Assembly (NCBI GenBank): GCA_024137785.1
Contig: JAHRHZ010000268.1
Coordinates: 30,537,466 to 30,601,465 of the forward strand
Reading direction: 5' to 3'
DNA from: Ginglymostoma cirratum
Lineage: Eukaryota
DNA: 64,000 nt
Part shown: in pieces, positions 636-56,790 of the stretch
How positions within the stretch are numbered: the stretch's first letter is position 1
How the letters are laid out: each line of letters begins with the position of its first letter
The notes under the pieces: generated by a model
Told to the model about the DNA's origin: nothing
Database searches by the model: none
What the model saw: only the letters and a program-made list of their open reading frames with translations
Program-made: the position numbers and the translations under genes

Positions 636-3600
636 TATTTTTCTATGCATTTGTAGGATGTGGGCGTTGCTGGCTGCCCAGCATTTCTTGCCCATTCCCA
701 GTTGCCCTTGAGAAGGAGGTGGTGAGCTGCCTTCTTGAACTGCTGCAGTCCTCCTGCTGTAGGTTGACCCACAATGCAGTGTGGAAGGGAATTCCAGGAT
801 TTTGACCCAGTGACAGTGAAAATATGGTGATATATTTCCAAGTCAGGATGGTGAGTGGCTTGGAGGGGAACTTGGAGGTGATGCCCTTGTACTTTGAGAT
901 GGAAGTGGTCGTGGGTTTGGAAGGTGCTGTCTGAGGATCTTTGGTGAATTTCTGCAGTGCATCTTGTAGGTAGTACACACTGCTGCTACTAAGCATCGGT
1001 GGTGAATGCTTGTGGATGTAGTGCCAGTCAAGCGGGCTGCTTTGTCCTGGATGGTGTCAAGCTTTTGAGTGTTGTTGAGGCTGCACTCATCCAGGCAAGT
1101 GGGGAGTATTCCATCACACTCCTGACTTGTGCCTTGTCGATGGTGGACAGGCTTTGAGGAGTCAGGAGGTGAGATACTTGCCACAGTATTCCTAGCTTCT
1201 GGCCTGCTCTGGTAGCCACTGTGTTAATGTAGTAAGTCCAGTTGAATCTCTGGTCAATGATAACCCCCAGGATGTTGATAGTGGGGGATTCAGTGATGGT
1301 AACACCATTGAATGTCAAGGGATGGCGGTTAGATTGTCTTTTGTTGGTGATGGTCATAGCCTGTCATTTGTGTGGCGAGAATGTCACTTGCCACTTATCA
1401 GCCTAAGCCTGGATATTGTCCAGATCTTGTTGCATTTGAACATGGACTGCTTCAGTATCTGAGGAGTCACGAATGGTGCTGAACATTGTGCAATCACCGG
1501 TGAACATCCCCACTTCTGACCTTATGATGGAGGGAAGATAATTGATGAAGTAGCTGAAGATGGTTGGGCCTAGGACACTACTCTAAGGAACTCCTGCAGA
1601 GATGTCCTGGAGGTGAGATGATTGACCTCCAACAACCACAGCCATTTTCCTATGTGTCAGGTATAACACCAACCAACGGAGAGTTTGCCTCCAAATACCC
1701 ATTAATTCCAGTTTTGCTAGGGGTCCTTGATGCCACACTCAGTCGAATGCAGCCTTGATATCAACAGCTGTCACTGTCACCTCACCTCTGGAATTCAGCT
1801 CTTTTGTCCATGTTTGAACCAAGGCTGTAATGAGGTCAGGAGCTGAGTAGCCCTGGTGGAGCCCAAACCGGGCATCACTGAGCAGGTGCTGCCTGACATC
1901 ACTGTTGATGACACCTTCCATCACTTTACTGATGATTAAGAGTAGGCTGATGGGGCAGTAATTGGCCAGGTTAGATTTGTTCTGTTTTTTGTGTACAGGA
2001 CATACTTGGGCAATTTTCTATATTGTTGAGTAGATACCAGTGTTGTAACTGGACCAGAACAGCTTGGCTAGGAGAGCAGCAAGTTCTGGAGCACAAGTCT
2101 TCAGTGCTATTGTCAGAATGTTGTCAGGGCCCGTAGCCTTTGTATTATGCAGTGACCCCAACCATTTCTTGATGTCACGTGGAGTGAATCAAATTTGCTG
2201 AAGACTGGTATCTGAATTCTGGGGACCACTGGAGGAGGCCGAGATGGATCGTCCACTCAGCACTCCTGGCTGAAGATTGTTGCGAATGCTTCAGCCTTAT
2301 CTTTTGCACTGATGTGCTGGGCTCTCCCATCATTGAGGATGGGGATATTTGTGGAGCCTTCTCCTCCAGTGAGTTGTTTAATTGCCCACCATCATTCATG
2401 TAGCAGGACTGCAGAGCTTCGATCTGATCTGCTGGTTGTGGGATCACTTAACTCTGTCTATCACTTGCTGCTTTCACTGTGTGGTGTGCAAGTAGTCCTG
2501 TTTGGTGGCTTCACCATGTTGATACCCCATCTTCAGTTATGCCTCATGCTGCTCCAAAAATGCTCTCCTGCACTGTCCATTGAACCAGGGTTGATCCCCT
2601 GTCTTGCTGGTAATGGTTGAGTGGGGATATGCCAGACCACGGGGTTACAGATTGTGCTGGAGTACAATTCTGCTGCTGTTGATGGCCTACAGTGCCTCAT
2701 GAATGCCCAGTCTTGAGTTGCTGGTTAAGTGTGAAGTCTGACCCATTTAGCATGGTGACAGCGCCACACAACACAATGGAAGTTATTCTCAATGTGAAGG
2801 TGGGACTTCGTCTCCACAAGGACTGTGCAAAGGTCACTCTTACCAATACTGTCATAGACACATGCAACTGCAGCTGGCAGATTGGTAAAGATGAGGTCTA
2901 GTATGTTTTTCCCCCTTGTTGGTTCCCTCACCACCTGCCACAGACCCAGTCTAGCAGCTATGTCCTTTAGGACCCGACCAGCTTGATCAGTAGCACTGCT
3001 GGCGAACCACTCTTGGTGGTCGATGTTGAAATCCCCCACCCAGAGTACATTTTGTGCCCTTGCCATCCTCAGTGCTTCCTCTAAGTGTTGTTCAACATTG
3101 AGGAGTACTAATTCATCAGCTGAGGGAGGACAGTATGTGGTATGTGGTAATCAGTACGAGGTTTCCTTGCCCATGTTTAATCTGAAACCATGACACTTCA
3201 TGAGGCCCAGAGTCAATGTTGAGGACTACTAGATCAACACCCTCCCGACTGTATACCACTGTGCCACCACCTCCGCTGGGCCAGTCCTGCCAGTGCGATG
3301 GTGATGGTCGTGTACGGGACATTGTCAGTAAGGTATTATTCAGTGAGTATGACTGTGCCAGGCTGCTGCTTAACTAGTCTGTGAGACAGCTCTCCTAATT
3401 TTGGCACTAGTCGCCAGATGTTAGTGAGGAGGACTTTGCAGAGTAGACAGGGCTGTTTCTGCCATTGTCTTTTCCGTTGCCTAGGTCGATGCCAGGTGAC
3501 CCATCTGGTTTCATTTCTTTGAGACTTTGTAGCGATTGGTACAACTGAGTGGCTTGCTAGGCCATTTCAGAGTCAACCACATTGCTGTGGGTCTGGAGTC

Positions 3601-3858
3601 GCACGGAGGCCAGACCAGATAACTGATGGCAGATTTCCTTCCCGGAAGAACATTAGTGAACCAGATGGGTTTTTCCCGACAATCGGCAATGATTTCATGG
3701 TGATCAGTAAATTCTTAATTCTAGACTTCTTTTCTTAATTATTGAATTCAAATTTCACCATCTGCTGTAGTGGGATTCGAACCCGGATCCCCAGAACATT
3801 ACTTGTGTTTCTGGATCAATAGTCGAGCAATAATACCACTAGACCATCGCCTACCCCT
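636..3858 (-). mobile_element. Near full-length CR1-group (Zenon-like) LINE, APE endonuclease + RT, frameshifted, with tRNA-derived 5' head
   Basis: Minus-strand peptides in order: LTNIWRLVPKLGELSHRLVKQQPGTVILTE, WVGDFN, EPTRGKNILDL, IGKSDL (APE); QGYSAPDLITAL...AVDIKAAFD, ILGVIIDQRFNW, KAQVRSVMEYSPLAW (RT and C-terminus). 3' tail near 640-700. Confidence 0.92.
3765..3858 (-). promoter_or_regulatory. tRNA-derived Pol III internal promoter (A and B boxes) at the LINE 5' end
   Basis: Reverse complement reads ggggtaggcgaTGGTCTAGTGGtattattgctcgactattgatccag...ccGGGTTCGAATCCcact. Confidence 0.8.
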
Positions 3859-4370
3859 GATTATACACAGATTCACTACCTGCGGATGCACGTACTCATG
3901 AGAAACGCTCCCTCTAAGCTGTGCAGTTGCTGTCCGATGCTCCTTGCATGGTGATTGACATTGATTGAAGCATTAACTAATGGTTCTGGAAGATGTTGTC
4001 ATGCATGGGCCTTGCAGCCAGTAAGAAATTTAGAGAAAACGCTGCTCATGAAGTCAGCCTCAGACTCGATTTTATTTTTCCGAATTGACAGATCCCAATC
4101 GGTCACACAATCCTTCATGACAGGTAGGGAATTTCTTGGAAAACGCTATGTCCACTTTTGTGTTATCTGAGGGAGGTTTGTGCCCCTATCCCTTGAGGAT
4201 AACAAGGATTTAGCATAGTTAAAAGATTTGCTCGGACACTTAGGATTGGAAATTCCTTGAAGGCCGGGAAATCTGAAATTATAAAAGTGGTGACCAAGGT
4301 TTATGGGTGACAGCTGAGGGTGGTGAAATGGATGAAGTTGTTGTTGAGAGATTAAAATCGGATGAGTGGA

Positions 4371-6132: not shown

Positions 6133-6231
6133 GTTTTCTGATGAAGGGTCTAGGCCCGAAACGTCAAGCTTTCCTGCTCCTATGATGCTGCTTGGCCTGC
6201 TGTGTTCATCCAGCTCCACACCTTGTTATCT
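6133..6231 (+). mobile_element. PLE-terminus mini-element (Neptune family) inserted in Gypsy pol
   Basis: Nearly identical to the reverse complement of 48212-48307, the 3' end of a Neptune PLE. Confidence 0.85.
6135..6168 (+). ncRNA. Minimal type I hammerhead ribozyme motif (intact core)
   Basis: tt-CTGATGA-a-gggt ctag gccc-GAAACGTC-aa: CUGANGA box, stem II, GAAA, vestigial palindromic stem III, GUC site. Confidence 0.75.
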
Positions 6232-9356: not shown

Positions 9357-9682
9357 GGGAACACGGTGGCTCAGTGGTTAGCACTGCTACCGAGGACCCG
9401 GGTTCGATTCCACCCTCAGGTTACTGTCTGTGTGGAGTTTGCACATCCTCCAGATGTCTGTGTGGGTTTCCTCCCACAGTCCAAAGATATGCAGGTTAGG
9501 TGGATTGGCCATGCGAAATCTCCTGTAGTGTCCAGGGGTGTGTAAGTTAGGTGGATTAGACATGGGAAATGCTGGGTTACAGAGAAAGGGGAGGGGAATG
9601 GGTCTGTGTGGGATGCTCTTTGGAGGGGTGGTGTGGATTTGTTGGGCCAAATGGCCTGTTTCCACACTGTAGGAGTTCTATA
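9357..9682 (+). mobile_element. HE1-type V-SINE (tRNA-derived)
   Basis: A box tggctcagtgg, B box ggttcgattcc, V-domain tgtctgtgtggagtttgcacatcctcc...gggtttcctcccacagtccaaagatatgcaggttagg, CR1-like tail gggccaaatggcctgtttccacactgt. Confidence 0.92.
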
Positions 9683-9802
9683 ATATTCAAGAATAATGTG
9701 GAAGAAATTAAAAGTTGCACTAAATGTCTTTTCATTCAGAGGACTGGTTTGTCATTATGTCTATAGTTACTTGTCAACATGATTTCTTTGGCTATATGGC
9801 AG

Positions 9803-15625: not shown

Positions 15626-17250
15626 GTCAAGCATTAAAAAACTCAAGAAAAAAAATTATAATAACCCAACAGTGAACAAAGGGTGCATGATAGGCATTAT
15701 GAACAAATTGGACTACCTTGAGAAAGCACAGGCACTGCTTGCAGATACAAACACTTACCAACAGGTGGTGATAGACCCAACACTGCAGCTCGGAAATAGG
15801 ATCACCCAAACACTGAAGAGACTAAAGGATGCAGGACAGATAACCAAGATGTACTACATGAGAATGAAAACAGAGGGCACAAACACCCCCTGCTTCTATG
15901 GACTCCTTAAAGTACACAAACCAGACATCCCCCTCAGACGCATTGTTTCCCTCCCAGATACACCCTCGCACAAACTGGCCAAGGATGTACAACAGAGAAA
16001 AAACATCTAGTCGACAGATCACTCCATTGCATCCACTCAACCCAATAATTCCTCAATGCTCTTAAGCACATAAAAATCAGCAACGACAAGATTATGGTAT
16101 CCTTTAAAGTCACTGCATTATTCTTGTCAATTGACATCCCACTAACCAAAGAAACACTGGTTACGTTACTAGGGAAAGCAGGAAAGCTACCAGCAGTTCC
16201 ATCAGCAATGACAATATACTCAAACTGCTAGACTTGTGCCTTACTGCACACTTTGTCTTTAATGGTCAAGTATACAAACAGATGAATGGCATACACATGG
16301 GGCCACCCATCTTGGGACTCATCACAGAGGCAGTCATGCAAAGACTAGAACACACCACCGTCCCCCTCATTCAACTTAAACAGTGGATCCGGTATGTGGA
16401 CAACACGTTTGTCACCATTAAATGCACCAAACACATCACTTCATCAATAAAGTATTTGTCAGGATTAAATTCACAAGAGAAGAAGAAAACAACAATCAGC
16501 TTCCATTTCTGGACGTCAGAGTTGAACGTGTGACCAATGGGGACTTCCAAACCTTGGTATACGGGAAAGCAACCTACACTGACCAAATCCTCAACTTCCG
16601 CAGCAACCACCCCAACATCCATAAACAAAGCTGTGTTAGGACATTATTTTAATGGGCCATCACTCACTGCAACACGCCAGAGCTGCCAGGAAAGAGGAAG
16701 AGCACTTATGCGAAATCTTTGCTATGAATGGATATCCCCTCAACTTCATCTGCAGCTGCTGACTAAATAGACAAATTCAAAAGGACACAGTATGCCCTAA
16801 CACACTGGCCACACTGCCCTACATCAAGAACATATCAGAACTGACAATGAGATATCTACTTCCACTAGGAATCATGGTAGCACACACACTTAAACAAACA
16901 CTCACAAGGATTAAAGACTCCATACCCATGACATGCAGAACGAACATAGTTTACAAAATACCATACAACGACTGCCACAAACATTACATTGGACAGACAG
17001 GAAGGAAACTAGCCATCAGAATACACGAACATTGGCTAGCAGCAAAACAACATGACAAACTTTCTCTAATAACACTCAACAATGAAGACCATTGGGTTCA
17101 CTGGGACAATGTAACCACAGTTGCCCAAGCTAAACATAGACATGCACGGGAATTCCTGGAGGCATGGTTATCAACCCATAATGCAATCAACAAGCATGTA
17201 GACTTCAAACCCATATACAAACCCAGACAGAACAGAACAGTAGTGAACTG
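15626..17250 (+). mobile_element. Poseidon/Penelope-type PLE, RT + GIY-YIG endonuclease, frameshifted
   Basis: NKGCMIGIMNKLDY, FYGLLKVHKPDIPLRRIVS, YKQMNGIHMGPP, WIRYVDNTF, LPFLDV, NIVYKIPYNDCHKHYIGQTGRKLAIRIHEH, AREFLEAW. Confidence 0.93.
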
Positions 17251-17999
17251 TTCCAGGAACAGTGCATTGTAAGATGGTGCTAGAATTAGATATAAAAGAT
17301 GCCATGGGATGGGGTAAATAGTACATTATGTGTGATTGGTAAGATGCAGTGAGAAAACTGGCTGTATGTGCAATGAAAAACCCTTCGGAAACTCGATGCA
17401 GCTCACTCTTAGCCAGAAGGAGTAAGATTCAGCCCATTAATTAGAATTTGAGCAACTGAATAAAATGGAATTTTGTTTAACAACTTTTTTTCAAAATAAT
17501 GTTAAAAGCAGTTTATTGAGGGAACCGTAATAACATAATGCCTCTTTTGTGCAGGTGATCTCCATTATGAGCCAATGAAATGGTCCTGGGTTTTAGTTGG
17601 CTTGAGACCCGGGAAAAATTGGATTGCAGACACTGTCAAGGACACACAATTTGTCTTTTTAGGGCACTTTCTGCCAATAACTCATTATCAATATAAATGT
17701 GCTGTACCAGAGAAAAGTTATTGCAGTAATTTACTTCGTTCATGCTGTTGGCAGGGAGTATTTCTTGCCAAGAGCGCATAATGAAAAACATACGCAGCAC
17801 ATGTCCAGATATCTGATACATGCTGATAGTGAATGAAGCTCCTGACTAAGAGCTCAAACTCAAAGCATTACTCTCTAAGATTAGATGAAAACAGAATATG
17901 TTATTCAGGTGAAATACCTATTGTCTCTGAACAACTGGGGGGTTCTTAACACATATTTAATCTGTGAATTATGAGATGCTTCCAATTTTTTAAAACAAA

Positions 18000-19730: not shown

Positions 19731-20002
19731 TGCGCGCCATCAATTGTCATGTTGTCCGGTAAATCACTGTATTTGGGTATTAAAAGAAGAAAATACTGGA
19801 AATACTAAGTTACAATAAATGCACCAAACAAAAATGTAGGGTAATTTCTCTGGATTTATCCTGTTTTATTCCATTATAACCTTGATGCAAACAAGTGCAG
19901 AATATCTAAAATTCAAGAGAGCAGGTGAGAGTGACTGTCATTATCATTAACACAGAACTTGAACCAATGCGGTATCAAGCAGCCTTAGCAAAATTAGTTT
20001 TG

Positions 20003-21386
20003 TTTTTCATTCACTCATAGGTTGTGGGCGTTGCTGACTGGGCAAGCATTTATTGCCCATCCCTTGTTGCCCTTGAGAAAGTGGTAGTGAGCTGCTTTCT
20101 TGAATCGCTGGAATCTGTTAGGTTAGTTGCCATTAGGGAGGGAGCTCCAGGATTTTGACCTTTTGACACTAAAGGAAAGTTGATGTATTTCCAAATCAGG
20201 ATTTTGAGTGGCTTGGAGAGGATATTGCAGGTGTTGGAATTCCCATGTATCCGCTGCCTTTGTCCTTATAGATGGTAGTGGTGATGGGTTTGGAATGTGC
20301 TGTCTAAGGAGTCTCGGAGAATTTCTGCAGTGTATTTTGTAGATAGTGCCCATTGCTGCTTTTAAGCATTGTGATAGGGAGAATAAGTGTTTATGAATGT
20401 ATCAATCAAACAGGCCATATTGTCCTGGATTGTGTCAGACTTCTTGAGTATTGTTTGAACTGTACTCATCCAGGTAAGTGGGGAATATTCCTTTCCACTC
20501 CTGACTTGTGGATGGGGGACAAGCTTTGGGGAGTCAGGAGGTGAGTTACTTGTTGCAGCAGTCCTAGCCTCTGACCTGCTTTTGTGGCCAGTTATATGGT
20601 TAGTCCAGTTCAGTTTCTGGCGAATGGTAATTGCCAGGATGTTGATGGTGGGGAATTCAGTGATGGCAACACCATTGAATGTAGAAGGGAGATGATTAAT
20701 TTCCCTCATATTGCCTGATGTAATGAAAATGTTACTTGCCACTTCTCAACCCAAGACTGGATATTGTCCAGATCTTGCTGCATTTGGACATGGATTGCTT
20801 CAGTATCTGAGGAGTCGTGAATTGTGCTGAATATAGTGCAATCATTGGCAAGCATTATCACTTCTCACATTATGACGGAGGGAAGGTCATTGGTGAAGCA
20901 GCTGAGAAAACTCCTGCAGAAATATTCTGCTGCTGAGATGACTGACCTCTAACCACCTCAACCATCCTTTTTTTGTGCTAGGTTTGACTCCGACCAATAA
21001 AGAGATTTCCCCTGATTCCCATTGACTTCAGTTTTGCTGGGGCTCCTAGAGGCCATACTTGTTCAAATGCAGCCTTGATGTCAAGGGCTGTCACTCTCAC
21101 CTCACCTCTGGAATTCAGCTCTTTCATCCATGTTTGAACTAAGGTTGTAATGAGCTCAGGAGCTGAGTGGCCCTGGTGGAACCCAAACTGGGCGTCACTA
21201 AGCAAGTTATTGCTGAGCAGGTGTCGCTTGATAACACTGCTGATGGCACCTTCCATCACTTTGCTGATAATCGACAGCAGACTGATAGAATGATCTTTGA
21301 TTGGATCGGATTTGTCCTGCTTTTTATTTACAGGACATAATTGAACAATTTTCCACATTGTTGGGTAAATGCCAGTGTTGTAGCTG
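20003..21386 (-). mobile_element. Zenon-like CR1-group LINE, 5'-truncated (same family as 636-3858)
   Basis: YPTMWKIVQLCPVNKKQDKS...ISLLSIISKVME...QFGFHQGHSAPELI...ALDIKAAFEQVW; same 3' tail. Confidence 0.92.
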
Positions 21387-23844
21387 TTAAAATGCACAGT
21401 GCACATGTGAATACTGTACACAAAATGCATTTCAGGAACTCACCAAGCTTCCTTCAAAGACACCTTCTGAACACATGACGTCTACCACCTAGAAGGACAA
21501 GGATAGCAGAAGCACAGTAACACTTCTGTCAATGGAGCTTCTCCAGCTCCTTGTCTTGGTGAACCTTCCAGTCCATCCTTCCTCTCTTTATCTGCTCATT
21601 TCACAACAGCTGCTCCTACAGTGACTTTTCCATACTCTCTGAAAATTCATTCTTCTTCTGTTTTGCTAGCTTTCTCTCTATCCTAAGGAGCACAAAATAA
21701 TCATTTTTGATCACATTTCTGTCTTTCCTGGTGATCCTAGCCTTCTATTTCTTTCTGTTCAGTCTTGATCAATGACCCACTACCCTGACAAGCACTCTGA
21801 TATGTCTCTCGCTGTCTCTATGTGATAGGTAAGAAAGGTAGGTTTTTTTTCAATTATTCCTCATGTGGTGGTAAAGTAGGGGAAAAAGTAGAAGTAGCTA
21901 ATTGTGGGCAATTGGCAGTTTGATTCAAGGGCAAAAGTTTAGGATGGAATTTTTCTTGCCAATCAGTACATTTCTTGTATTTTCTCTCGGTAAGTTGAAA
22001 GCAATATAGTTCATAATGTTGATCAGCCATTTGCTTTGAACGTAAGTTTTCGAGTTGCAAAGATTAGATTTCTCTGTATCCCCATTATCAGATTTTTTTT
22101 TGTATTTGTTCACTTCACAGTATGATGGTTCTATGTCTGTTTACTGAAGACAAACAGTTTGGCATTGTTAACATTGCTCATGTTCTGTTTTGATGTTATT
22201 TTTTGCAAAATGAGGTCCTATTTTAAGGCGGTCCTCAAGAGTTTACCAACATTTTCAGTACTTTCATTATTTTGCACAAAAATTCTTTGCTATTGAAAGA
22301 GATTCAATAGTGACTTTGTTCAGAAATTAATATCTTTAATATTTACCATCTGTATTATGTGCTGCAGTTATGTAAAGACATAAAAGCAGGAACTACAAAT
22401 TTTCTTGACACTGATTTGTCAAGTCTGACTTATTTCAAATGACATTTGCTGTAGTCTGTTAAATATGTAACCACTTTCTGTGATTTTTTTTTCTCTGTAA
22501 AAAAATACACCAGCTCTATTCATCTTACTGGCTTTGTAATCTGTCATTCTTTTCAATAGGCTGATTCCTGGCAATATTGAGACAATTAGAAATTAATAGT
22601 AGCAATTGCGAACAAAAGGCTCCTTTCACAGACAGGAGATGGGGAGAGAGAAGGCATTAATTGATGATTTTGAGGGAGTATAACAGGAGGGGGAGGAGTG
22701 GGATTTGGTAAAAGTTAGTGCTTTCTCCCCAGTACCTACAATATTGGAGAACTGTTGCAGGAAGCAGCTCTAAAATATTGGCTCCATGTCCAACAGCTGT
22801 TCAAACAACTACACTGTTTATATTGCAGAGCAGTTTCTGCACCAGCTGAATAGACCTTTGGTACTTTCACATTGTCATAAGAACCTCATGGGAGTATCAA
22901 ACCAGCACAACCTTCATGTGCTGCTCTCTTCTGTTTACCTCACTTCTTGCCGCTCCTCCAATCAAGATATGTTAGAATTAAGTCAATAATTTCTGTGGCC
23001 AAGAGGAGCGAATCAAGCTCCATTGATTTGATTGGAAGTGGGTGCACATGGTTTTCACAACACTTTCAAAATACTGATGACATTGGCTTTTTGGAGATAA
23101 TATTAAATATCATTGGGCTGCCATTGACCATCATCTTTCAATGTAAAAGAGCCTTTTAATTTTGCAGTTGTACTTGTATGTTGGCACCAAGAGCAGCTCC
23201 CAGGGCAGGGCAAATCAGAGCATTAGTCCTGGGCCCCAACACTGGGCTGCCTGGCACTGGCCCTGTAGGCAACTGGAGGGAACCAGAAAAAAAGCTGGAG
23301 ACCCACCTTGGGGCTTGAAGGATGAGGGGTAGGGGGGGAGGTGTTGCACAGTTTGATTTGCCCCATAACTCCTTAGAGACAGCTTTGTTTTTGGCATCTC
23401 CTGATAAATATACCACTGGATGCAACCGGTTCCAGAAGAAACCTTCTCTTTGTCACACCTAACCAACTGGAAAAGATAGGACAGAAAAGGTGGTGCCAGA
23501 TAAAATATGAAGCAAAAGAAGCCTCTGTGTTTCAATTGCTGTAAAATAGGGCATGCTCAGGCTAACTGCTGACAGATACAAGAGAAAAACTGTGGGAGTT
23601 ATGAGGCCACTCACATCCCATGCAGACAATGTGAGTCTGTTGCAGACCAGACCAGGGTGAGGTGAGCAATAGTGAGATGTATCAGGACCAAACAATCTCT
23701 ATTGCTTGGAAAAAGCATGACCTTTTCAGTGTGTGGTAAGAGCCAAGATGCTGGTAAAAAGAAACGAAGGAGGGTACATGCTATCTCCTTTACTGGAGCA
23801 TCTAGAATATGACTTGTGTCAGGACCAGTGACTGCGGGTGACAT

Positions 23845-25102
23845 GTACGGAAAATCGTGTCTCGCTGAATGAGTTATTTGAAGAAATAACAAAGAAGATT
23901 GATGAAGGCAGAGTAGTGGGTCTGATCTATGTGGACTTCAGTAAAGCATTCAACAAGGTTCCTCATGGTAGACTGGTTAACAAGGTTAGATCACATGGAA
24001 TACAGGGAGAACTAGCCATCTGGATACAGACCTGGCTCGAAGGTAGAAGACAGAAGGTGGGGATGAAGGACTGTTTTTCAGCCTGCAGGCCTGTGACCAG
24101 CGGTGTGCCACAACAATTGGTAATGGCTTTTCATCATTTATATAAATGATTTGGATGTGAAAATTGGACGTAAGGTTAAGAAGTTTGCAGATAACACCAA
24201 AATTGGAGGTGTAGTGGACAGCGAAGAGGGTTAACTCAGAGTACAATGGGACTTTGATCAGATGGGTCAATGGGTCGAAGAGTGACAGATGAAGTTTAAT
24301 TTAAATAAATGTGAGGTGCTGCTTTTTGGAAAGATAAATCAGAGCAGGACTTATACACTTAATTGTAAGGTCCTGGGGAATGTTGCTGAGCAAAGAGATC
24401 TCGGAGTGCGGGTTAATATTTCCTTGAAGGAGGAGTACCAGGTAGACAGGATAGTAAAGAAGGTGCTTGGTATCCTTGTCTTTATTGATCAGTGCATTGA
24501 GTATAGGAGCTGAGAGGTCATGTTGTGGCTGTACAGGATATTGGTTAGGCTACTTTTGGAATACTATGTGCAATTCTGGTCCCCATGCTACGGAAAGGAT
24601 GTTGTGAACTTGGAAAGGGTTCAGAAAAGATTTACAAGGATGTTGCCAGGGTTGGAGGGTTTGAGCTTTAGGGAGAGGCTGAGAAGGGTGGGATTATTTT
24701 CTCTGGAGAATCAGAGGCTGGGTGGTGACCTTGTAGAGGTTTATAAAATGATGAGGGGCAAGCATAGTGTGAATGGACAAGGTTTTTTTTCCCTGGGGTA
24801 GGAGTGTCCAAAACTAGAGGGTATAGGCTTAAGGTGAGAGGGGAAAGATTTAAAAGGGACCTAAGGGACAACTTTTTCATGCAGAGGGTGGTGTGTGTAT
24901 GAAATGAGCTGCCAGAGGAAGTGGTGGAGGTTGGTATAATTACAGCATTTAAAAGACATCTGGCTATGTATATGAATAGGAAGGATATAGAGGGATATGG
25001 GACAATTGCTGGCAAATGAGACTAGATTAATTTAGTATAGCTGGTCAGCATGCCTGAGTTGAACTGAAGGGTCTGTTTCCATGCTGTACAGCTCCATGAC
25101 TC
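23845..25102 (+). mobile_element. CR1 (HER1-like) LINE 3' part inserted in Gypsy protease
   Basis: YVDFSKAFNKVPHGRL, VTSGVPQ, KFADNTK, LYRILVRLLLEYYVQFWSP; tail ccatgactc; tgacat at 23839-23844 and 25103-25108. Confidence 0.95.
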
Positions 25103-28116: not shown

Positions 28117-28703
28117 TAGAGTCATATTTTCATACAGCATGGAAACAGACCCTTCGTTCGAACCAGTCCACACTGACCAAGTCCCCAAACTGAACTAGTC
28201 CCACCTGCCTGTGCTTGGCCCATATCACTCCAAACCTTTCCTATTCTTGAACTTATCCAAATGTCTTTTAAATGTTTTAACTTTACCTGCATCAAACACT
28301 TTCTCTGGCAGCTCATTCTAAACATGTACCCAGCTCTGTGTAAAAAAAGTTGCCCCTCATGTCCTCTTTAAATCTTTCTCCTGTAACCCCCTTAAAAAAT
28401 GCCCTTTTGATTTGAACTAGTTTTGAAAAGGGCCTTGTCGTTCAACTTATATATGACCCTCATGATTTTATAAATCTCAATAAAATCATCCGTCAACTTC
28501 CTACACTCCAGTGGAAAAATGTCCCAGCCTTTCCAGTCTATGTTTACATATCAAATCTTCCATTCCTGGCAACATCCTGGTAAATCTTTTCTAAATCCTC
28601 TCCAGTTTAATAATACCCTTCCTATAACAGGGTGACCAGAACTGCAGACAGTATTCTAGAAGAGGCCTCACCAACATTCTGTACAATTTCAACATGATGC
28701 CCA
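28117..28703 (-). mobile_element. CR1 3' fragment
   Basis: MLKLYRMLVRPLLEYCLQFWSPCYRKGIIKLERI plus 3' UTR like 24900-25100. Confidence 0.9.
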
Positions 28704-28773: not shown

Positions 28774-28944
28774 TTTTTTTTTTATTTTATTCACAGGATG
28801 TGGACATAGGCCAGCATTCATTGCCCCTCCTTATTTGTCCAGAGGGCAGTTGAGAATTGGCCACATTGTTGTGGGTCTGGAGTCACATGTATGCCAGACC
28901 AGGTAAGGAAGGCAGTTTCCTTTCCTGAAGTACATTAGTGAAAC
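28774..28944 (-). mobile_element. Fragment of the SINE sharing both ends with the Zenon-like LINE
   Basis: LINE 3' tail (ggatgtgg...ggccagcattcattgccc) is joined directly to sequence matching LINE 5' region 3566-3660 (ccacattgttgtgggtctggagtc...cattagtgaa). Confidence 0.8.
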
Positions 28945-30111
28945 ATTTATATAAAATAGCTTACAAATTGGAAAAATTATAGCCAAGAAATTGGACCATA
29001 CCTTGATAAGAGTGTGATCTTGACGCAGAGTATGACGTAACCACCTATAAGGTCGACAGCAAGACTATAGGAAATTGATCAAATGACCTTATCAGTTTAA
29101 GAGCATAAGACTTAATAATTTAAGAAATAGTTGTTTGAGTGAACCACTTGCTTGTCTCATTTAAGTTATCGATAGAGATTATAAATAGTTGACGTCAAAT
29201 ACTGATCCTTGCTTTATCCTGCTAGTTATGATTTGCCAATCCAAAAATATTTATTCCTACTCTCTGTTATCTGTCTGTTAACCCATTTTCAGTTTATGTT
29301 TTTATTTAACTTATGTAAATATATTATCAGAGAGCTAGCAAATAGAATTCACATTAGAAACATGAAGGTCTATAAAATGGTAACATTGCTAATGAATTTC
29401 CAGGTCTATGCTTTTTATGAAAGGTTCAGTAACATCATACCTAATATTTAAGCAAGTGCAAGAAGATTCAACAATCTGCTAATCATGTTTTCAGAAAGTG
29501 TCTGGTTGGCTAAACACTCAAGTTAGATGAGAAGTTTTACAAGGGACTATATTTTCTATTTTATTCATCTCTCAATTAAATAAACCACTTCCTGGAGACT
29601 AGTGTCAATTGTTTACTTCTTTTGGCATACTACTTTTTTCATTGCCCAAAGTCATTTATGCAACAAATGTTTGTACTGCAGAATGTTTTGAAACACCATA
29701 ATATAGTTGCGAGACAAAGTAAATGCAATTCAATTTCACAAAAACAATGCCAGAAAAATCACAAAATTTGGAATCTCCATAATTCAATGCTTTGAGGTTC
29801 TTTTAGTTTTAATACTTTTTGCAGTAATAAGGAATTAGAAGCAATTTTAATTGCTTAGTATTATTTTGATTATATTTTTCAACAAAATGTTTTGCAGCCT
29901 TATGCAGGCAATTGTTTCTGAACCTTTCTGCTGTCATCAGTTTCAAGCGGGATACTCTTCGGCCAGCTATGCTACTGCTGTTTGTAGTGATAATGATTGT
30001 CAAGCAATTGTACAATTGCATTTTTTTCTGAAGAATTAAGTGAAGCAGCCAAATTCCATCAAACTAGCAAAGTTGAAAAAAGTGTGAAAGAAAGAGGAAG
30101 TAAAATGTTTC

Positions 30112-40324: not shown

Positions 40325-41595
40325 AAAGAAGGTAGGTATGGTTGTTGGGGATCATTATTCCTGACTTTGGAAATCATTCAGGAGTACTTTAGAGTAAATA
40401 TGTTCTAATCAACCTGTTCAGTGATGTTATTACACACCTCCAGAGCATATAGGACCTTAATCCAGGCCACCTGGCTCAAAGGTAGTGACACTACCACTGC
40501 ACCACAAGAGCACCCAAGATCCTCAGGCTAAATGGAACAATTTTCAACTACTTCATCAAAGATCTTCCTTCAGTTGTAAGGTCAGAAGTGGGGATGATTG
40601 CTGATCATTGTACAGTGGTCTACCCAATTCACAGTTCCTTAAATACTGAAGCAGTTCATATCCAAAGGAGAAGAAGTTGGACAATGCTTAGCTTGGGCTA
40701 ACAAATGACTAGTAACATTCACACCATATAAGTGCCAAGTAATAACCATCCCTAACAGGAGAGAAACTAACCAGCTCCCCTTTGCATTAAATGGCATTAT
40801 CATCACTGCATCTCCTACTATCAACTTCCGGGAGAGGAGGGGTTACCATTGACCAGAAGCTGAAATGGACTGGTAACATAAACAACAAAAACAGAAATTG
40901 CTGGAAAATCTCAGCAGGTCTGGCATCATCCGTGGAGAGAAATTAGAATTAACATTTTGGGTCCAGTGACCTGTAATATAAATATTCTGACCATAAGACC
41001 ATGTCAGAGGTTAGGTATCCTGAAATGAATAACTCATGTCCTGATTCGTCTTTGTGTGTCTACCATTTACATGACATAACTCAAGAATACAGAAAAATAT
41101 TCCCATTTGCCCGAATGAGTGCAGCTACAGCAATGCTCAAGATTTTAAACACAGTCTAAGGCAAAATCAGATATCTTTACTGCCACCCATTCACATCCTT
41201 CAACATTCACTACCCCCACCCTCAATGCACTGTAGTAGAAATATATACCATCTACAAGATGCACTGCAGCAACTCACTAAGCTGCTTTGGCAGCATCTTC
41301 CAAATCTAAGACATCAATTGGCTAGAAAGACAAGGGTAGCAGAGGAATATGAAAAAGAAACACCTCCTGCAAATTTCCCTCTGAGCTACAGATGAGCCTG
41401 AATTACCATTCTGTCATTGCCACTGATCAAAATTCTTGAACTCCTTTCCAACAGCACAGTTAATGTAAATTCCCCTCCATGGGCAGCAGCAGTTTAAGAA
41501 GGCAGCTCGCCATGCTCTTTTTAAGAGTAATTAGGGATAGGCTGGAAATGCTGGCTCAGCCAGTGATGTTCATATCCTGTGAATGAATAAAAAAA
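40325..41595 (+). mobile_element. Zenon-like CR1-group LINE 3' part, old; contains SINE (40400-40511) and PLE mini-element (40883-40972)
   Basis: aggtcagaagtggggatgattgctgat, atctacaagatgcactgcagcaactcac, tail gctggctcagccagtgatgttcatatcctgtgaatgaataaaaaaa. Approximate TSD gtaacataaa/gtaatataaa around the mini-element. Confidence 0.85.
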
Positions 41596-42463
41596 GTAGT
41601 TGCTGCTAGCATCAACTTGCTTACAGACTATATAGGATCAGGTAGTGGAGAAAGATAAATGAGACACTGATCACTGCAGGAATTTTTCACTCTCCCACAT
41701 GCACAAAAGGATAGCAAGCAATTTAAATAGTTCAATTTCCTCTTTCATACCAACTTATTTCTGGTTACAGTCTGAGAACACAATACTTCCTCAGGACTAC
41801 ATTGAAGTATCAGCCTTGAGATTTGTACTCAAGTGTTTGAACACAGAATCATTTAACTCCAAGGCAAACGCTGTACACTGAGTCACAAGTGACACCAGTA
41901 GTAGGAAGAACGGGGGGAAACATTTTTCTGTGGGGCTGGACGGAGTAAAATTGCATCTTCCAGACCCACATTGAAGGTTTCTGTCGCTCTGTCACAATCT
42001 CTTCAATACCTCTCTCACAGGGCAACCCTAAAATCTCCTGGGCATTTACTTGCAAGCTGCCAGGTGAGTAACACTATCTTCCCAATGCATTGCTCATCTT
42101 CATGCACAGAATAGCAATGTTGGGTAAATAACTACGTTTTCAGTCCCCTACCACCAACCCCACACAACTCCTCCTATTTGTCCAAAAGTATTGATACCTT
42201 TAAATCAAACACTCTTGTGTTCTTTGCGAATGAGAAACATGAGCAACCAAGTGGAAATAATTGCAATAGGTTCTGTTGCATCTATCCCTTTGACTTTGGG
42301 AAATAAAGAAGTTGGATGAGAGTTGTCGGATTCAGGTTGGCCATGGGATGGAGCACTTACATAACCACAAGCTTTTTCTGTCTATGGACATCATAATGAT
42401 TTGACAGTATCCCACTACTGCTTAGTGGCATATTGTGATTCACATGTCAGAAGGGACCATGCC

Positions 42464-42558
42464 ATTTCTGAAGAAGGGTCTAGGCCGAAAATGTCAGCCT
42501 TCCTGCTCCTCTGATGCTGCTTGGCCTGCTGTGTTCATCCAGCTCTACACCTTGTTAC
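42464..42558 (+). mobile_element. PLE-terminus mini-element (Neptune family), near-intact hammerhead
   Basis: atttCTGAAGAagggtctaggccGAAAatgtcagc...acaccttgtta. Confidence 0.8.
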
Positions 42559-43789: not shown

Positions 43790-45104
43790 AGACCTGACAT
43801 CAGTGGCGGGTAAGTTGTTGGAGGGGTTGCTGACGGACAGGATTTACATGCATTTGGAAAAACAAGAATTGATTAGGGATAGTCAACATGGAAACTGTGT
43901 CTCACTAACTTGATTGAGATTGTTGAGCAAGTGACAAACAACATTGATGAAAGCAGAGCAGCGGACATTGTCTTTTTGGATTTCAGCAAGACATTGTATC
44001 AGGGTTCTACATGGTAGACTGGTTAGCAAGGTTAGATCACATGGAATCAAAACTGGATACAAAATTGACTTGAAGGAAGCTGACAGAGGGTGGTGGTGGA
44101 GGGTTGTTTGTTGGACTGAAGGCCTGTGACCAGCAGTGTGCTGCAAGAATCAGTGCTGGGTCTACTGCTTTCCTCATTTATATAAATGATTTGGATGTGA
44201 ATATAGGCGGTGTGGTTCGTAAGTTTGCAGATGACACCAAAATTGGTGGTGTAGTGAACAGTAAAGAAGATTGTCTCAGAGGGTACAATGGGACCTTGAT
44301 CAGATGGGCAAGTGGGCCGAGGAGTGGCAACGGAGTTTAATTTAATTAAATGTGAGACATTGCATTTTGGTAAGGCAAACCAGAGTAGGATTATACAGTT
44401 AACGGTAGGCCTTAGGGAGGTTTGCCAAGCAAAAAGACCTATGGGTGCAGGCACATAATCCCTTGAAAGTGGAGTTGCAGGTAGACAAGTGGTGAAGAAG
44501 GCATTCGGCATTCTTGTCTTCGTTGGTCAGTGCATTGCGTATAGGAGTTGGGATGTCATGTTGCACTGTACAAGACATTGGTTAGGTCACTTTTAGAATA
44601 CTGCATTCACCTCTGATCTCCCTGCTATAGGAAAGGTGTTGTTAAACTTGATAGGATTCAGAAAAGATGCTGCTGGGATTGGAGGGCTTGAGCTATAGGG
44701 ACAGGCTGAATAGGCTGGGGCTTTTTTCCTGGAGCATTGGAGGCTGAAGGGTAACCTTATAGAGGTTTATAAAATCATGAGGGGTGAATAGCCAAGGTCT
44801 TTTCCCCAAAGGGGAGACCAAAACTAGATGTTTATGGTGAAAGGGGAATGATTTAAAAGGGTCCTGAGGGCCAACATTTTCATGTGGATGGTGATGCATG
44901 TTTGGAACAAGTTGCCAAAGGAAGTGATGGAGGTGGGTACAATTACAACATTTAAAAGGCATCTGGATGGGTATAAGAGTAGGAAGGGATCAGAGGGATA
45001 TGGATCAAATGCTGGCAAATGGATAGATTAATTTAGGATATCTGGTTGGCAAGGACAAGTTGGACTGAGAGGCTTGTTACTGTGCTGTATAACGTTATGA
45101 CTCA
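43790..45104 (+). mobile_element. CR1 (HER1-like) LINE 3' part
   Basis: FLIYINDLDVNIGGVVRKFADDTKIGGVV; collinear with 23845-25102; tail ttatgactc. Confidence 0.95.
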
Positions 45105-48211: not shown

Positions 48212-49058
48212 GATAACAAGCGTGGGGCTGGATGAACACAGCAGGTCAAGCAGCATCATAGGAGCAGGAAAACTTGACGTTTCGGGCCTAGACCCTTCAT
48301 CAGAAATGGGGGAGGGGAAGAGGGTTCTGAAATAAATAGGGAGAGAGGGGGAGGCGGATAGAGAATGGATAGAGGAGAGGATAGGTGGAGAGGAGGCAGA
48401 CAAGTCGAAGAGGCGGGGATGGAGCCAGTCAAGGTGAGTGTAGATGGGGGGGTAGGGAGGAGATAGTCAGTCCAGGGAGGACGGACAGCTCAAGGGGGCG
48501 GGATGATGTTAGTAGATAGGAGATGGGGTGTGGCTTGAGGTGGGAGGAGGGGATAGGTGAGAGGAAAAACAGGTCAGGGAGGTGGAGATGAGCTGGGCTG
48601 GTTTTGGGATGCGGTTGGGGGAGGGGAGATTTTGAAGCTTGTGAAATCCACATTGATGCCATTGGGCTGCAGGGTTCCCAGACTGAATATGATTTGCTGT
48701 TCCTGCAGCCTTTGGGTGGCATCACTGTGGCATTGCAAGAGGCCCAGGATGGACATGTCATCTGAGGAATGGGAGGGGGAGTTGAAATGGTTCGCGACTG
48801 GGAGGTGCAGTTGTTTGTTGCGAACTGAGCGCAGGTGTTCTGCAAAGCGGACCCCAAGCCTCCCCTTGGTTTCCCCGATGTAGAGGAAGCCACAACAGGT
48901 ACAGCGGATGCAGCATACCACATTGGCAGCTGAGCATCTGCCTGATGTGGAAAGTCTTCTTGGGGGCCTGGGATTGGGGTGAGGGAGGAGGTGTGGGGGG
49001 CAGGTGTAGCACTTCCTGAAGTTGCAGGGAAAAGTGCCATATGTGATGGGGCTGGAGC
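48212..49058 (-). mobile_element. Neptune-type PLE 3' part (Cys linker + GIY-YIG + terminus), 15-bp TSD
   Basis: GTFPCNFRKCYTCP, NVVCCIRCTCCGFLYIGETKGRLGVRFAEH, TLQPNGINVD; cccctacaatgagga at 48197-48211 and 49059-49073. Confidence 0.93.
48274..48307 (-). ncRNA. Minimal hammerhead ribozyme motif in PLE 3' terminus (intact core)
   Basis: Reverse complement atttCTGATGAagggtctaggcccGAAACGTCaa. Confidence 0.78.
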
Positions 49059-49779
49059 CCCCTACAATGAGGACACCATCTGAATCTCCCATTTATATCT
49101 ATCAGCCAGTGCTCCCTGATTGGCCCAGGTTAATAACCCCAATCAGTGATCTCATAGTCAAATGAGATCCACCTTGCCCTCCTTCCAATCACTACAGCAT
49201 CACATCTGGGGGTTCTCGTTCACATCAAAACTCAATGCCATCGTCCTATAAATCTGGGGTGAGAAATAACACATTTCAATCAAATTTCAGGTATGTGACA
49301 ATTGTGATCATCTTTAATAAGGGAGATAAATCATGCTGTGGAAACTAATGCAGTATTTCATTCTTGTGCAGTGCAGAGAAATTGCTGACACGTATTTTCT
49401 TGAATCACCTTCTTCCTAATACTGAGGAAATCCTTCCAGAGACGTAATGAGGTTTTAGAAACCAGAGGAACATTTGATATGATCATTGTTATCAGACAAA
49501 TCCAGGAAAAATGTAGAGAGCAACAATAGGAACTCTGGAATACATTCTTTGAGATGACCACATCATCTGACCCCGTAAATTCAGACATTATGTGGATTGT
49601 GCTTCAAAGATTTGGATGTCTAAGAAACTTCATCACAATTCTGCAATTATTGTTTGGGAGGTCTGAAACAGTCCACTCAACATTTGGACTGGGGTCAAGC
49701 AAAGCCGTTTTAGTCTCCAGACTATTTTTGATCTACTTGATACTGGTTGTTCACTTCAAACTACATCTGACTTCTGGTG

Positions 49780-49900
49780 CAGAGCTGGATGAACACAGCA
49801 GGCCAAGCAGCATCATGATGCTACTTGGCCTACTGTGTTCATCCAGCTCTACACCTTGTTATGTCAGATTCTCCAGCATCTGCAGTTCCTACTATCTCTG
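49780..49900. mobile_element. PLE-terminus mini-element collapsed into a loop-less palindrome of about 70 bp
   Basis: agagctggatgaacacagcaggccaagcagcatca|tgatgctacttggcctactgtgttcatccagctct, then acaccttgttat...ccagcatctgcag. Confidence 0.8.
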
Positions 49901-53483: not shown

Positions 53484-53846
53484 TGGGGAGATAGTGATGT
53501 AACGGTTTTGCCACTGGACTAGTAATCCACAGTTCCGGGCTAATGATCTATGGGCATGAATTTTAATTCAATTTACTAAATCTGGAATTGAAAACTAGTC
53601 TCAGTAATGATAATTGTGAAACAATATTGGCTATTTTAAATACCCGTCTGTTCATTAACGTCCTTTAGGGAAAGAAATATCTTAACTGTCTGGCCAACAT
53701 GTGACTGGAGACATACAAGAATGTGGTTAAGACTTAACTGCCTTCTGAAATAGGCAGCTCATCACTGCCATCTCAAAGGTAACTATGGATGGACAATAAA
53801 TGCTGGTGCAGTCAGTGTTGCCCACACCCAATGGGTGAATAAAAAT
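53484..53846 (+). mobile_element. Full-length, decayed SINE sharing 5' head and 3' tail with the Zenon-like LINE
   Basis: ggggagatagtgatgtaacgg...ctggactagtaatcc...tctggaatt...ttcattaacgtcctttagggaa...aatgtggtt matches the reverse complement of 3560-3858; ggacaataaatgctgg...gcccacaccca...gaataaaaa matches the LINE tail. Confidence 0.8.
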
Positions 53847-55059: not shown

Positions 55060-56129
55060 TTCATGGTAAGTACACTGTAGCTCTTCTTTGAATTCGAAAT
55101 CACCAATTCATGCAAACAAGTCGAATAGCTTTCCAGGATTATTCACTCATTTCTTGCAGAGGGATATTTTCTTATCAGAGCAACTAACAAATCAACAACA
55201 GAAAACCAAGGACAGAGAGAGTGCAAAACACAGCAGGCCTGTCTGGGAGCCTTTTTCATAACACACTCACAGTTTCTAAACCCCAGCCAGAACTGGTTCA
55301 CTACATTTTCCTTTCTTTTACCAACATTCTCTGTGATTGGCTGGCTAGCACCAAATAGCCCTTGATTGATCAATTCAACATCCAACCAATTGCCAGCCCT
55401 GAGCCTCGAACACCTTGGTGCTAAAATATCTAAAGTGTTCTCAGGACAATAATTGACCTGAAACTATCTTTTCAGGCCAGTTCCAGTAATCAAAGCTAAG
55501 TTGTTTGGTCTGTCTTCCTTTCCATAACAAGCTGCTGCTCAAAGTTCAAAGTTTGATTCTCAACTTCAGCTCACACTTCCAAATCAAAAATAAAAAAAGA
55601 GAAAATTAAATAATGAAGTTCTCAACAGTATTTTAATGAAAAATGCAGAATCAACTGGCTAAGCACTGTTTGACAGTTTGTGTGGTCTTCATTAAAGTAA
55701 CGGTACATTAGAAAAATGTCTACTGGGGGAAAAAATTAACTTCTATGCATAGATGTCATTTGATCAATTGTTTCAATGACACACAGTGATCTCAAATACA
55801 TTATATTAAATAATAAATGTTTTCTCAGTCCTGCATATTACTATAATGTTTCATGAATTTCAAACTTTATTAAATTTCTTTTATCTGTTTAAACAATGTT
55901 CAACTTTGTCAGCAGCAGTGATACTTCCTGTAACACTGAAAAATATATTTGTCGCAGTGGTATTTTTAAGTTAGCATACCGCAAAAATTGCTAATAACAA
56001 ATTCTATATTTAAATATTTCAAAATAAGGAATTTCAGAATGTCACACAATATTTCAAATTGTGAATGACTGTGGTTCTTTACCTAAAAAGGTTGTATTTC
56101 TATTTTCTCTGACAATGCTTGCATCTACT

Positions 56130-56790
56130 TGACAATTTGGAAATTTGCCCAGCTAGGTCCTATGCATCAAAAGCAGGACAAATCCAACCCAACCAATTAT
56201 TTCCCACCACCTACACTCCATCGTCAGCAAAGTGATGAAAACGATTGTCAACGGTGCTGTCAAGCAGCAATTCCAAATAAATAATCTGTTCATTGATACT
56301 CAGTTTGGGATCCTTTATGGACACTGAGCTCCTGACTTGATTACTCCCTGCTCAAAACATAGACAACAGACCTGAACTGCAGAGGTGAGGGGAGAGTGAA
56401 TGCAACATCTTCCCTCAATGGCAGAAAGCTGTCTAAGAATAACAAAGGATGGGCATTAAGCTCAGCACCAGAAATGACAAAGACACACTCAGCCTGGCTG
56501 ACTACACACTGCAAAGCCCACCTTACAAACAGCTGGGGAGCTGAGCCAAAATTGTAAGAGCTGTCCCACATTCTGATCATAGAACAGCCTGACACAGACA
56601 TACTCACTCTATCTATTTTGCAGCGAATGTCCCACACTCCTCCAACACCATCCTTCTAGAAACAGCAACACAGAATTAACTCCAGGCCCATGAAGTTTCA
56701 TTGCATCAGATCAAACATGAGCAAGAAATCTTCTGCTGGGCAATAAATACCGGCTAACAATGGTGAGATCCCACAAGTTAGTAAGTAAAA
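56130..56790 (+). mobile_element. Zenon-like LINE fragments
   Basis: aaaagcaggacaaatccaacccaaccaatta...ctgagctcctgacttgattac...ctgaactgcagaggtgaggggagagtga; tail gggcaataaatac. Confidence 0.7.

What the first reader, a model, noticed from the sequence alone, without database searches (positions are those of the whole stretch)
636..3858. ORF1-less LINE with a tRNA-derived Pol III head
Seen: the APE domain starts at about 3450 (LTNIWRLVPKLGEL...VILTE). Only about 400 nt lie upstream, and they begin with A box TGGTCTAGTGG and B box GGTTCGAATCC around an anticodon-like arm (ctggact...aatcca in the 53484 copy, reminiscent of tRNA-Gln). There is no room for an ORF1. Established: CR1-group LINEs normally have ORF1 and a Pol II 5' UTR, and tRNA heads define SINEs. 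Inference: an autonomous SINE-LINE chimera that may use a Pol III-type promoter for a coding RNA.
Basis: partly seen in the sequence, partly recalled or inferred. Interest (0 to 1): 0.7.

Follow-up and report, generated by a model that had tools for sequence, protein, structure and literature searches.

The report
Shark LINE with a tRNA-like head
This is a broken copy of a very abundant shark-and-ray jumping gene (a Zenon-type LINE) whose full-length form begins with a tRNA-like promoter head normally seen only on short parasitic SINEs, and that head likely lets RNA polymerase III copy the whole protein-coding element, which has not been tested.

Summary
Observation confirmed, and not a chance neighbour. 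The element (minus strand, 3857 to 636) is a decayed elasmobranch Zenon LINE: A/B-box head, 220-nt body, short linker, one endonuclease-RT frame, A-rich tail. The same head, body and junction open 7 of 7 published shark and ray Zenon consensuses (5 species; supplement of PMC13343379) and none of the 3 hagfish/coelacanth ones; other copies in public runs and gene models bridge body and ORF. Lacking ORF1 is normal for Zenon, so that half is known. The head goes unmentioned in that paper ('tRNA', 'promoter': 0 hits); one earlier precedent is a passing remark on RTE-1_DAn. Abundant short elements are body plus tail of this LINE; they are not the V-SINE HE1. All seven consensus 5' ends sit 5-10 nt before the A box, and the sense strand is poor in T runs, but codon bias may explain the latter. 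Pol III transcription of the full RNA is my lead mechanism (about 0.5), untested; the start codon is unclear. This scan already reported the same arrangement on other DNA (e1-7940754, e1-8041298).

The parts
636..3857 (-). Full-length but decayed Zenon-type LINE (about 3.22 kb)
   Evidence: 5' 400 nt match RhiTyp_Zenon-1 (3293 nt) by eye; depth falls to about 10-30 beyond 3879
3765..3857 (-). tRNA-like head; 5' end 10 nt before the A box in the matching consensus
3836..3846 (-). A box TGGTCTAGTGG
3773..3783 (-). B box GGTTCGAATCC, 63 nt after the start of the A box
3543..3764 (-). Body (5' UTR) shared with the short elements; not a V domain
   Evidence: V motif absent
3438..3542 (-). LINE-specific linker: arginine-rich in the endonuclease frame; carries an out-of-frame ATG at 3514 opening a 35-codon upstream ORF that overlaps the endonuclease start
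   Evidence: same linker in P0001, P0004, P0006 and in the consensuses
2860..3437 (-). AP-endonuclease domain of the single ORF (broken by stop and frameshifts)
1058..2203 (-). Reverse transcriptase region (5 in-frame stops)
636..745 (-). 3' tail with predicted stem-loop and A-rich end, shared with short elements
   Evidence: (z -1.76, 10 of 200 shuffles fold as well)
53484..53845 (+). Short element: decayed head, body, then tail, no ORF
28775..28960 (-). 5'-truncated short element: body joined straight to the last part of the tail
19999..21386 (-). 5'-truncated copy of the same LINE (73% identical)
40536..41595 (+). Older 5'-truncated copy in pieces
56112..56728 (+). Rearranged fragments of the same LINE (RT piece before endonuclease piece)

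Best explanation
The element is a dead copy of the shark-and-ray Zenon LINE, a single-ORF retrotransposon whose full-length form starts with a tRNA-like A/B-box head, and that head likely acts as an internal RNA polymerase III promoter that would make the whole 3.2-kb RNA. Shown: the head-body-linker-ORF order is the family's own structure in sharks and rays; ORF1 is absent; short elements consist of the same body and tail. Established for LINEs in general: the endonuclease nicks DNA and the RT copies the RNA from its 3' tail, so 5'-truncated copies outnumber full ones and a promoter survives only if it lies inside the transcript. Inferred: TFIIIC binds the boxes and Pol III starts 5-10 nt upstream of the A box, which sets the family's 5' end; the T-poor sense strand lets it read through; the uncapped RNA is translated by a non-standard start (no in-frame ATG precedes the endonuclease); the head was captured by an ORF1-less Zenon after the split from chimaeras and before or across the shark-ray split; and deleting the ORF gives ready-made SINE-like elements. 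My odds: family architecture 0.97, short elements as internal deletions 0.6, Pol III makes the full-length RNA about 0.5.
For: (1) 7 of 7 elasmobranch Zenon consensuses (white shark, whale shark, catshark, dogfish x3, stingray) begin with head, body and the same junction; 0 of 3 hagfish/coelacanth Zenons do (first 400 nt of each, compared by eye). (2) Five B-box 10-mers searched over the first 400 characters of all consensus rows (row numbers run to at least 910) hit 6 times, all in elasmobranch Zenon rows; a 12-nt body motif hit 7 times. (3) The authors' table gives top insertions of 3299 nt and 1419 long copies for RhiTyp_Zenon-1, 1 with intact ORF2. (4): 5 of 32 listed contig pieces, from 3 of 4 runs, reach 31 or more letters into the body shared with short elements and into the linker, each with 25-57 differing letters, so they are other copies; summed depth over the linker (47,000-129,000 in X1) is of the order of the endonuclease start (109,000-199,000) and the head (138,000-312,000), against 10-30 in the flank. 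(5) 2 of 4 whale-shark gene models found with the junction peptide (P0004, P0007) and 1 horn-shark model (P0001) align to body and endonuclease in this order. (6) In all 7 consensuses the 5' end lies 5-10 nt before the A box, and both boxes are kept (B box exact in 6 of 7) while the arm between them varies. (7) Sense strand: runs of 3 or more T 11 against 28.3 expected from base shuffles (0 of 2000 as low), runs of 4 or more T 2 against 6.4 (P 0.05); 0 of 3 four-T runs are shared between the two Zenon copies that align, against 5 of 7 between two canonical CR1 copies in the same window; the first 400 nt of the 7 consensuses show no TTTT (by eye; related sequences, so about one observation). 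(8) In cell culture Pol III transcripts retropose without ORF1p while Pol II versions need it (PMC2666806, abstract only).
Against: No transcription data: nothing here shows which polymerase is used. The four-T deficit is not significant against first-order (3.6 expected, P 0.31) or second-order (1.5 expected) models; Phe codons favour TTC 15 to 3 but Tyr favours TAC 13 to 3 and Leu CTC 23 to 9, so a general C-ending codon bias could produce it (2 of the 7 segments were read partly in the wrong frame). The three older Zenon fragments show no T-run deficit, and Penelope-like fragments also have few four-T runs. Zenons without a head also lack ORF1, so ORF1 loss does not need Pol III. Pol III RNAs are uncapped (recalled) and held to be short, 100-700 nt for SINEs (PMC10886601), and LINEs are stated there to be Pol II transcripts. 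No listed contig piece spans head to ORF; only this window copy and the consensuses do. The stingray consensus has an imperfect B box. Only 400 nt of each consensus could be seen.
Confidence: 0.5

Rival explanations
1. The head is part of the family, but the full-length RNA is made by Pol II from an internal promoter in the head or body that starts at the same first base; the A/B boxes serve only the short elements or act as a TFIIIC-bound chromatin element.
For: LINEs are generally Pol II transcripts (PMC10886601; PMC5786205); a capped RNA is easier to translate; headless Zenons exist and their short deletion derivative Persaeus has no Pol III promoter (PMC6740152); the T-run deficit may be codon bias.
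Against: Needs a second, unseen promoter that happens to start where Pol III would; 8 ATGs lie 5' of 3510 and none opens the endonuclease frame in this copy, which does not suit cap-dependent scanning either; boxes are kept across sharks and rays in the long element itself.
Confidence: 0.33
2. Split labour or processing: the RNA is cut out of longer host Pol II transcripts at the tRNA-like head (RNase P-type cleavage, working like the 5' ribozyme of R2), or Pol III makes the template while read-through Pol II RNA from intronic copies supplies the protein.
For: Several LINE clades free their 5' ends by self-cleavage (PMC5786205); 39% of whale-shark CR1-Zenon-like sequence is intronic (10.1101/443036).
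Against: The head does not fold as or score as a tRNA (z -1.14), and the boxes, not the cloverleaf, are what is kept.
Confidence: 0.14
3. Chance juxtaposition of a SINE and a truncated LINE at this locus, or consensus-building that borrowed the head from the more abundant short elements.
For: The body is about ten times deeper than the linker in summed contig depth, which could pull a consensus extension; no listed contig spans head to ORF.
Against: Same junction in 7 of 7 consensuses from 5 species, in 5 of 32 listed contig pieces and in gene models of two shark orders; this window holds one unbroken head-to-tail copy whose head matches the whale-shark consensus at 103 of 115 letters (by eye); top genomic insertions reach consensus length.
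Confidence: 0.03

Closest known systems
Elasmobranch Zenon LINEs (RhiTyp_Zenon-1, CarCar_Zenon-1, ScyCan_Zenon-1, SquAca_Zenon-1/2/3, HypSab_Zenon-1; Stuart et al. 2026, PMC13343379)
   Same: Same 5' 400 nt by eye, same length (3.2-3.3 kb), single endonuclease-RT frame, no ORF1, A-rich tail.
   Different: Nothing in sequence; the paper does not remark on the head ('tRNA', 'promoter', 'polymerase' 0 hits in the main text; 'tRNA' 0 hits in the supplement). This copy is dead.
Butterfly Zenon and its short internally deleted element Persaeus (PMC6740152)
   Same: Single-ORF CR1-group LINE that gives short 5'+3' deletion derivatives.
   Different: Persaeus has no tRNA homology and no Pol III promoter; here the parent LINE itself carries the A/B-box head.
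Bipartite LINE-derived SINEs (Bov-tA, AfroSINE, RTE- and Vingi-derived; Kojima 2018, PMC5786205)
   Same: tRNA head + LINE 5' part + LINE 3' tail.
   Different: There the head is added to an already deleted LINE and the autonomous LINE has none; here the full-length LINE has it. The paper lists only RTE, Ingi, Vingi and R2 as sources.
RTE-1_DAn and relatives (one sentence in PMC5786205)
   Same: An autonomous LINE said to hold a tRNA-like sequence.
   Different: Different clade; position and function not described; the name occurs in 1 paper of the library.
HE1 V-SINE and HER1 CR1 LINE of sharks and rays (table row in PMC3747384; original papers not held)
   Same: tRNA-headed SINE and CR1-group LINE sharing a tail in the same animals.
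   Different: The V core is absent from this body; a separate V-type SINE with a canonical CR1-like tail lies at 9358-9685 and shares only the B-box region with this head.

Membership tests
Zenon (CR1 group) | Single ORF with AP endonuclease and RT, no ORF1 | tested here: met
Zenon (CR1 group) | Poly(A) 3' end rather than a short tandem repeat | tested here: met
   A-rich ends in 6 of 6 aligned tails; short and decayed in this copy
Zenon (CR1 group) | RT groups with Zenon in a tree | not testable with these tools
   RT parts of the published consensuses are cut off at 400 characters; RT is 75% identical to shark-type relatives but 27-34% to canonical CR1 fragments in the window
Elasmobranch Zenon-1 (RhiTyp_Zenon-1 type) | Over 80% identity to the consensus | tested here: met
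   103 of 115 letters in the head by eye; majority bases in the runs at 3769, 3787, 3817 agree with that consensus; only the first 400 nt could be compared
tRNA-derived SINE head (Pol III type 2 promoter) | A box and B box in order near the 5' end | tested here: met
   0 of 100 simulations; motif definitions recalled
tRNA-derived SINE head (Pol III type 2 promoter) | Similarity to a specific tRNA or cloverleaf fold | tested here: inconclusive
   ARAGORN 0, Rfam tRNA no match; a 5-bp stem with 7-nt loop is present in the consensuses and in the 53484 copy; no tRNA database to compare
tRNA-derived SINE head (Pol III type 2 promoter) | Transcribed by Pol III | not testable with these tools
   only contigs available, no RNA ends or strand
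tRNA-derived SINE head (Pol III type 2 promoter) | No internal run of four or more T on the sense strand | tested here: inconclusive
   2 runs in this copy, neither seen in the relative that covers it (P0003); not significant against dinucleotide models; full consensus not visible
SINE (as a class) | Short and non-coding | tested here: not met
   3.2 kb with an endonuclease-RT frame; met only by the short derivatives at 53484 and 28960
V-SINE / HE1 | Central V domain | tested here: not met
   V core seen is absent (0 matches; body versus the 9358 V-type SINE no better than 176 of 200 shuffles)
Meta-, Deu- or UCON3-SINE | Conserved central domain | tested here: not met
   no resemblance by eye to the domains printed; body motifs gave no matching hit in three papers' supplements
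Canonical CR1 (HER1 type) | Esterase ORF1 lineage, tandem-repeat tail | tested here: not met
   no ORF1, A-rich tail, low RT identity to the canonical copies at 23838-25102

The most novel reading that the evidence does not exclude
Sharks and rays carry an autonomous, protein-coding LINE family (up to about 7% of the genome) that is transcribed end to end by RNA polymerase III from a captured tRNA-type promoter and translated without a cap or a normal start codon, and that spawns SINEs simply by losing its ORF: a LINE with a SINE's promoter and a direct route from LINE to SINE.
Probability: 0.4. Interest if true: 0.88.

Novelty: new variant of a known kind. Interest (0 to 1): 0.6.

Why it matters
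The working rule is that LINEs are Pol II transcripts and that Pol III heads belong to short non-coding SINEs (PMC10886601, PMC5786205). A tRNA-headed LINE that is fixed across sharks and rays and makes up 6.75% of the whale shark and 4.4% of the dogfish genome breaks the structural half of that rule for certain. If the head is the promoter, it is a natural 3-kb Pol III messenger, a direct test of the idea that the polymerase decides whether ORF1 is needed (PMC2666806), and a source LINE for a SINE body, something Kojima 2018 could find only for RTE and Vingi. It also warns that repeat annotation in sharks will count LINE 5' ends as SINEs.

Tried and rejected
No whole genome is held, so copies could not be counted. 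Searches for other DNA copies found nothing: viral contigs, metagenome contigs, prokaryote genomes. First reading as HE1/HER1 (V-SINE and canonical CR1) was rejected. tRNA-Gln origin not supported by the loop; parent tRNA unresolved (Thr by the loop triplet; Leu-like features are only recalled and untested). ARAGORN and Rfam gave no tRNA. No target-site duplication. Expression: no RNA holder listed on record; run X15 is only guessed to be RNA and contigs cannot show strand, start or level, so it is not used as evidence of transcription. T-run test: significant against base shuffles only, not against dinucleotide or trinucleotide models, and confounded by codon bias. Paper search on 'HER1' returned unrelated papers; the V-SINE paper PMC155270 is not held; the search on translated uncapped Pol III RNA gave nothing on point by listing. 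Repbase, Dfam and SINEBase could not be consulted. No structure prediction was run, as the protein families were clear.

Full report
What is in the sequence. The element lies on the minus strand from about 3857 to 636. From its 5' end: a head with an A box (3846-3836) and a B box (3783-3773), a body of about 220 nt, a 100-nt linker, then one endonuclease-RT frame whose LTNIW codons start at 3428, and a tail with a predicted stem-loop and an A-rich end. The frame is broken by frameshifts and stops (5 in 2190-1060). Of 10 fragments scanned with Pfam, one gave Exo_endo_phos_2 above cut-off and one a weak RVT_1. An A box followed by a B box occurs twice in the window and in 0 of 100 simulations. 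ARAGORN and Rfam do not call the head a tRNA. No target-site duplication over 5 nt was found. No genome is held; protein relatives come from sharks and rays.

Is the head part of the family? Three lines say yes. First, gene models from other loci: the horn-shark protein P0001 and whale-shark P0004 and P0007 align to body then endonuclease; P0006 aligns to linker then endonuclease; P0005 begins with residues that read like the body but gave no alignment there. These are automatic predictions and may be spliced. Second, contigs of 4 public runs laid on 3150-3950 at 80% likeness: of 32 listed pieces (141,667 not shown), 5 from 3 runs extend 31 or more letters beyond 3569, where the short form leaves, and also cover the linker; 4 of them include the endonuclease start; each differs at 25-57 letters, so they are other copies. 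No listed piece spans head to ORF. Summed depth, which the tool warns is no copy number, is of one order over endonuclease start, linker and head and ten thousand times the flank; the body is about ten times deeper. The six best loose ends per run include tail sequence joined at 3559 and 3569 but none leading away from the linker on the body side (3754 more not shown). Third and decisive, the supplement of Stuart et al. 2026 (PMC13343379; I saw passages, the methods section, the outline and supplement rows cut at 400 characters): all 7 elasmobranch Zenon consensuses from 5 species open with this head, body and junction, while the 2 hagfish and 1 coelacanth Zenons do not. RhiTyp_Zenon-1 matches the window head at 103 of 115 letters by eye. 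Five B-box 10-mers hit only 6 places in the whole file, all in these rows. The authors list top insertions of 3299 nt, 1419 long copies and 1 intact ORF2 for the whale-shark family and 6.75%, 4.4%, 0.7% and 0.018% Zenon in whale shark, dogfish, stingray and elephant shark.

What was already known. The same paper says Zenon elements universally lack ORF1 and have a poly(A) tail, and that the elasmobranch ones were not in repeat repositories. So the missing ORF1 is ordinary for the clade. The words tRNA, promoter and polymerase do not occur in its main text, nor tRNA in its supplement. [quoted passage not shown] Butterfly Zenon gives a short deletion element without tRNA homology (PMC6740152, passages); CR1-Zenon partners SINEs in bivalves by the tail (PMC11481361, passages). 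I found no paper describing a tRNA-headed Zenon in searches; the library lacks most subscription papers, including the original HE1 and V-SINE papers (not seen), Repbase, Dfam and SINEBase entries could not be checked, and bioRxiv supplements were not seen. After reaching this reading I found that the scan had reported the same arrangement in two other genomes; these are AI notes and are not counted as support.

The short elements. 53484-53845 has a decayed head, the body (134 of 206 aligned columns) and the tail (69 of 94), with no ORF; 28960-28775 joins body to the last part of the tail. I first took them for HE1, the shark V-SINE (table row in PMC3747384; PMC4824008 passages and supplement), and rejected that: the V core is absent, and a separate V-type SINE with a canonical CR1-like tail sits at 9358-9685. 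The body does not resemble Meta, Deu or UCON3 domains as printed in the hagfish paper's supplement (PMC7245038; by eye). The short forms meet the tail at more than one point (3569, 3559; a longer tail piece in the 53484 copy), while the LINE junction is the same in all consensuses; this favours repeated internal deletion (0.6) over an older SINE lending its 5' part, but the head itself must once have come from a tRNA or SINE.

How it likely works. A LINE keeps only what is inside its transcript, so RNA of master copies must start at or before the first base of the head. In all 7 consensuses that base lies 5-10 nt before the A box, where a type 2 Pol III promoter starts (recalled), and the boxes are kept while the arm between them drifts. 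A 3.2-kb Pol III RNA needs a sense strand without T runs. This copy has 11 runs of 3 or more T against 28.3 expected and 2 runs of 4 or more against 6.4; neither four-T run is seen in the relative that covers it, whereas 5 of 7 four-T runs are shared between two canonical CR1 copies nearby. Against this, the deficit vanishes under dinucleotide and trinucleotide models, C-ending codons are favoured generally, and the three older fragments show no deficit. The result is compatible with Pol III, not proof. Translation is odd under either polymerase: the three ATGs in the endonuclease frame are closed by stops before it, and an ATG at 3514, present in all consensus rows but one by eye, opens a short frame that overlaps the endonuclease start out of frame. 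Pol III transcripts retropose without ORF1p in culture (PMC2666806, abstract), which would suit an ORF1-less LINE, but headless Zenons lack ORF1 too. PMC10886601 (passages) states the usual view that LINEs use Pol II and that Pol III limits length. PMC5499810 and 10.1101/443036 (passages) added only context.

Verdict. Real, family-wide and conserved across sharks and rays; a known LINE family with an unremarked SINE-type head. Architecture 0.97; Pol III making the full RNA about 0.5; Pol II from inside 0.33; processing or split labour 0.14; chance 0.03. New variant of a known kind; interest 0.6, rising to about 0.88 if Pol III transcription and translation of the full RNA are shown.

Noticed in passing
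window 9358-9685 (+): A second kind of tRNA-headed SINE with intact A and B boxes, a partly deleted V-type core and a tail like the canonical CR1 copies; probably the HE1 V-SINE (name recalled and from a table in PMC3747384).
   Followed up: partly
window 3514-3407 (-): Out-of-frame ATG opens a 35-codon ORF overlapping the endonuclease start; no ATG opens the endonuclease frame, whose upstream part is arginine-rich. Start mechanism unexplained.
   Followed up: partly
window 53846-53935 (+): A second, more diverged copy of the tail directly follows the short element's tail, preceded by a few letters like the end of the body: a nested or tandem insertion.
   Followed up: partly
window 53484-53660 (+): The short element's 5' part looks more like the dogfish and white-shark consensus heads than the whale-shark type head at 3857, suggesting an older subfamily (by eye).
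   Followed up: no
window 3600-3739 (joints): A joint skipping about 138 nt of the body recurs in 22-24 contigs in three DNA-type runs, hinting at a further short subfamily; what lies between is not known.
   Followed up: no
window 3835-3784 (-): The A-to-B spacing is long (63 nt) and holds a hairpin where a tRNA's variable arm would be.
   Followed up: no
window 56112-56728 (+): An RT piece is followed by an endonuclease piece of the same LINE, reversed order, ending in a few tail-like letters.
   Followed up: no
window 23838-25102 (+), 43911-45103 (+), 28133-28697 (-): Canonical CR1 copies, T-rich on the sense strand with shared four-T runs; used as control.
   Followed up: partly
window 15718-17272, 48536-49092, 57235-58221, 59206-60006, 61656-62672: Fragments of two Penelope-like families with GIY-YIG-type motifs (label recalled, not tested).
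   Followed up: no
window 6135-6231, 42462-42557, 48211-48309, 57032-57128, 49776-49862: A short young repeat (83-97% identical copies); at 49776-49862 two arms face each other as an inverted repeat.
   Followed up: no
P0001, P0002, P0008, P0012, P0017, P0020: Pieces of this LINE appear inside annotated shark and ray gene models (immunoglobulin-domain gene, CWC25, cystathionine beta-synthase, anoctamin): exonisation or prediction artefact.
   Followed up: no
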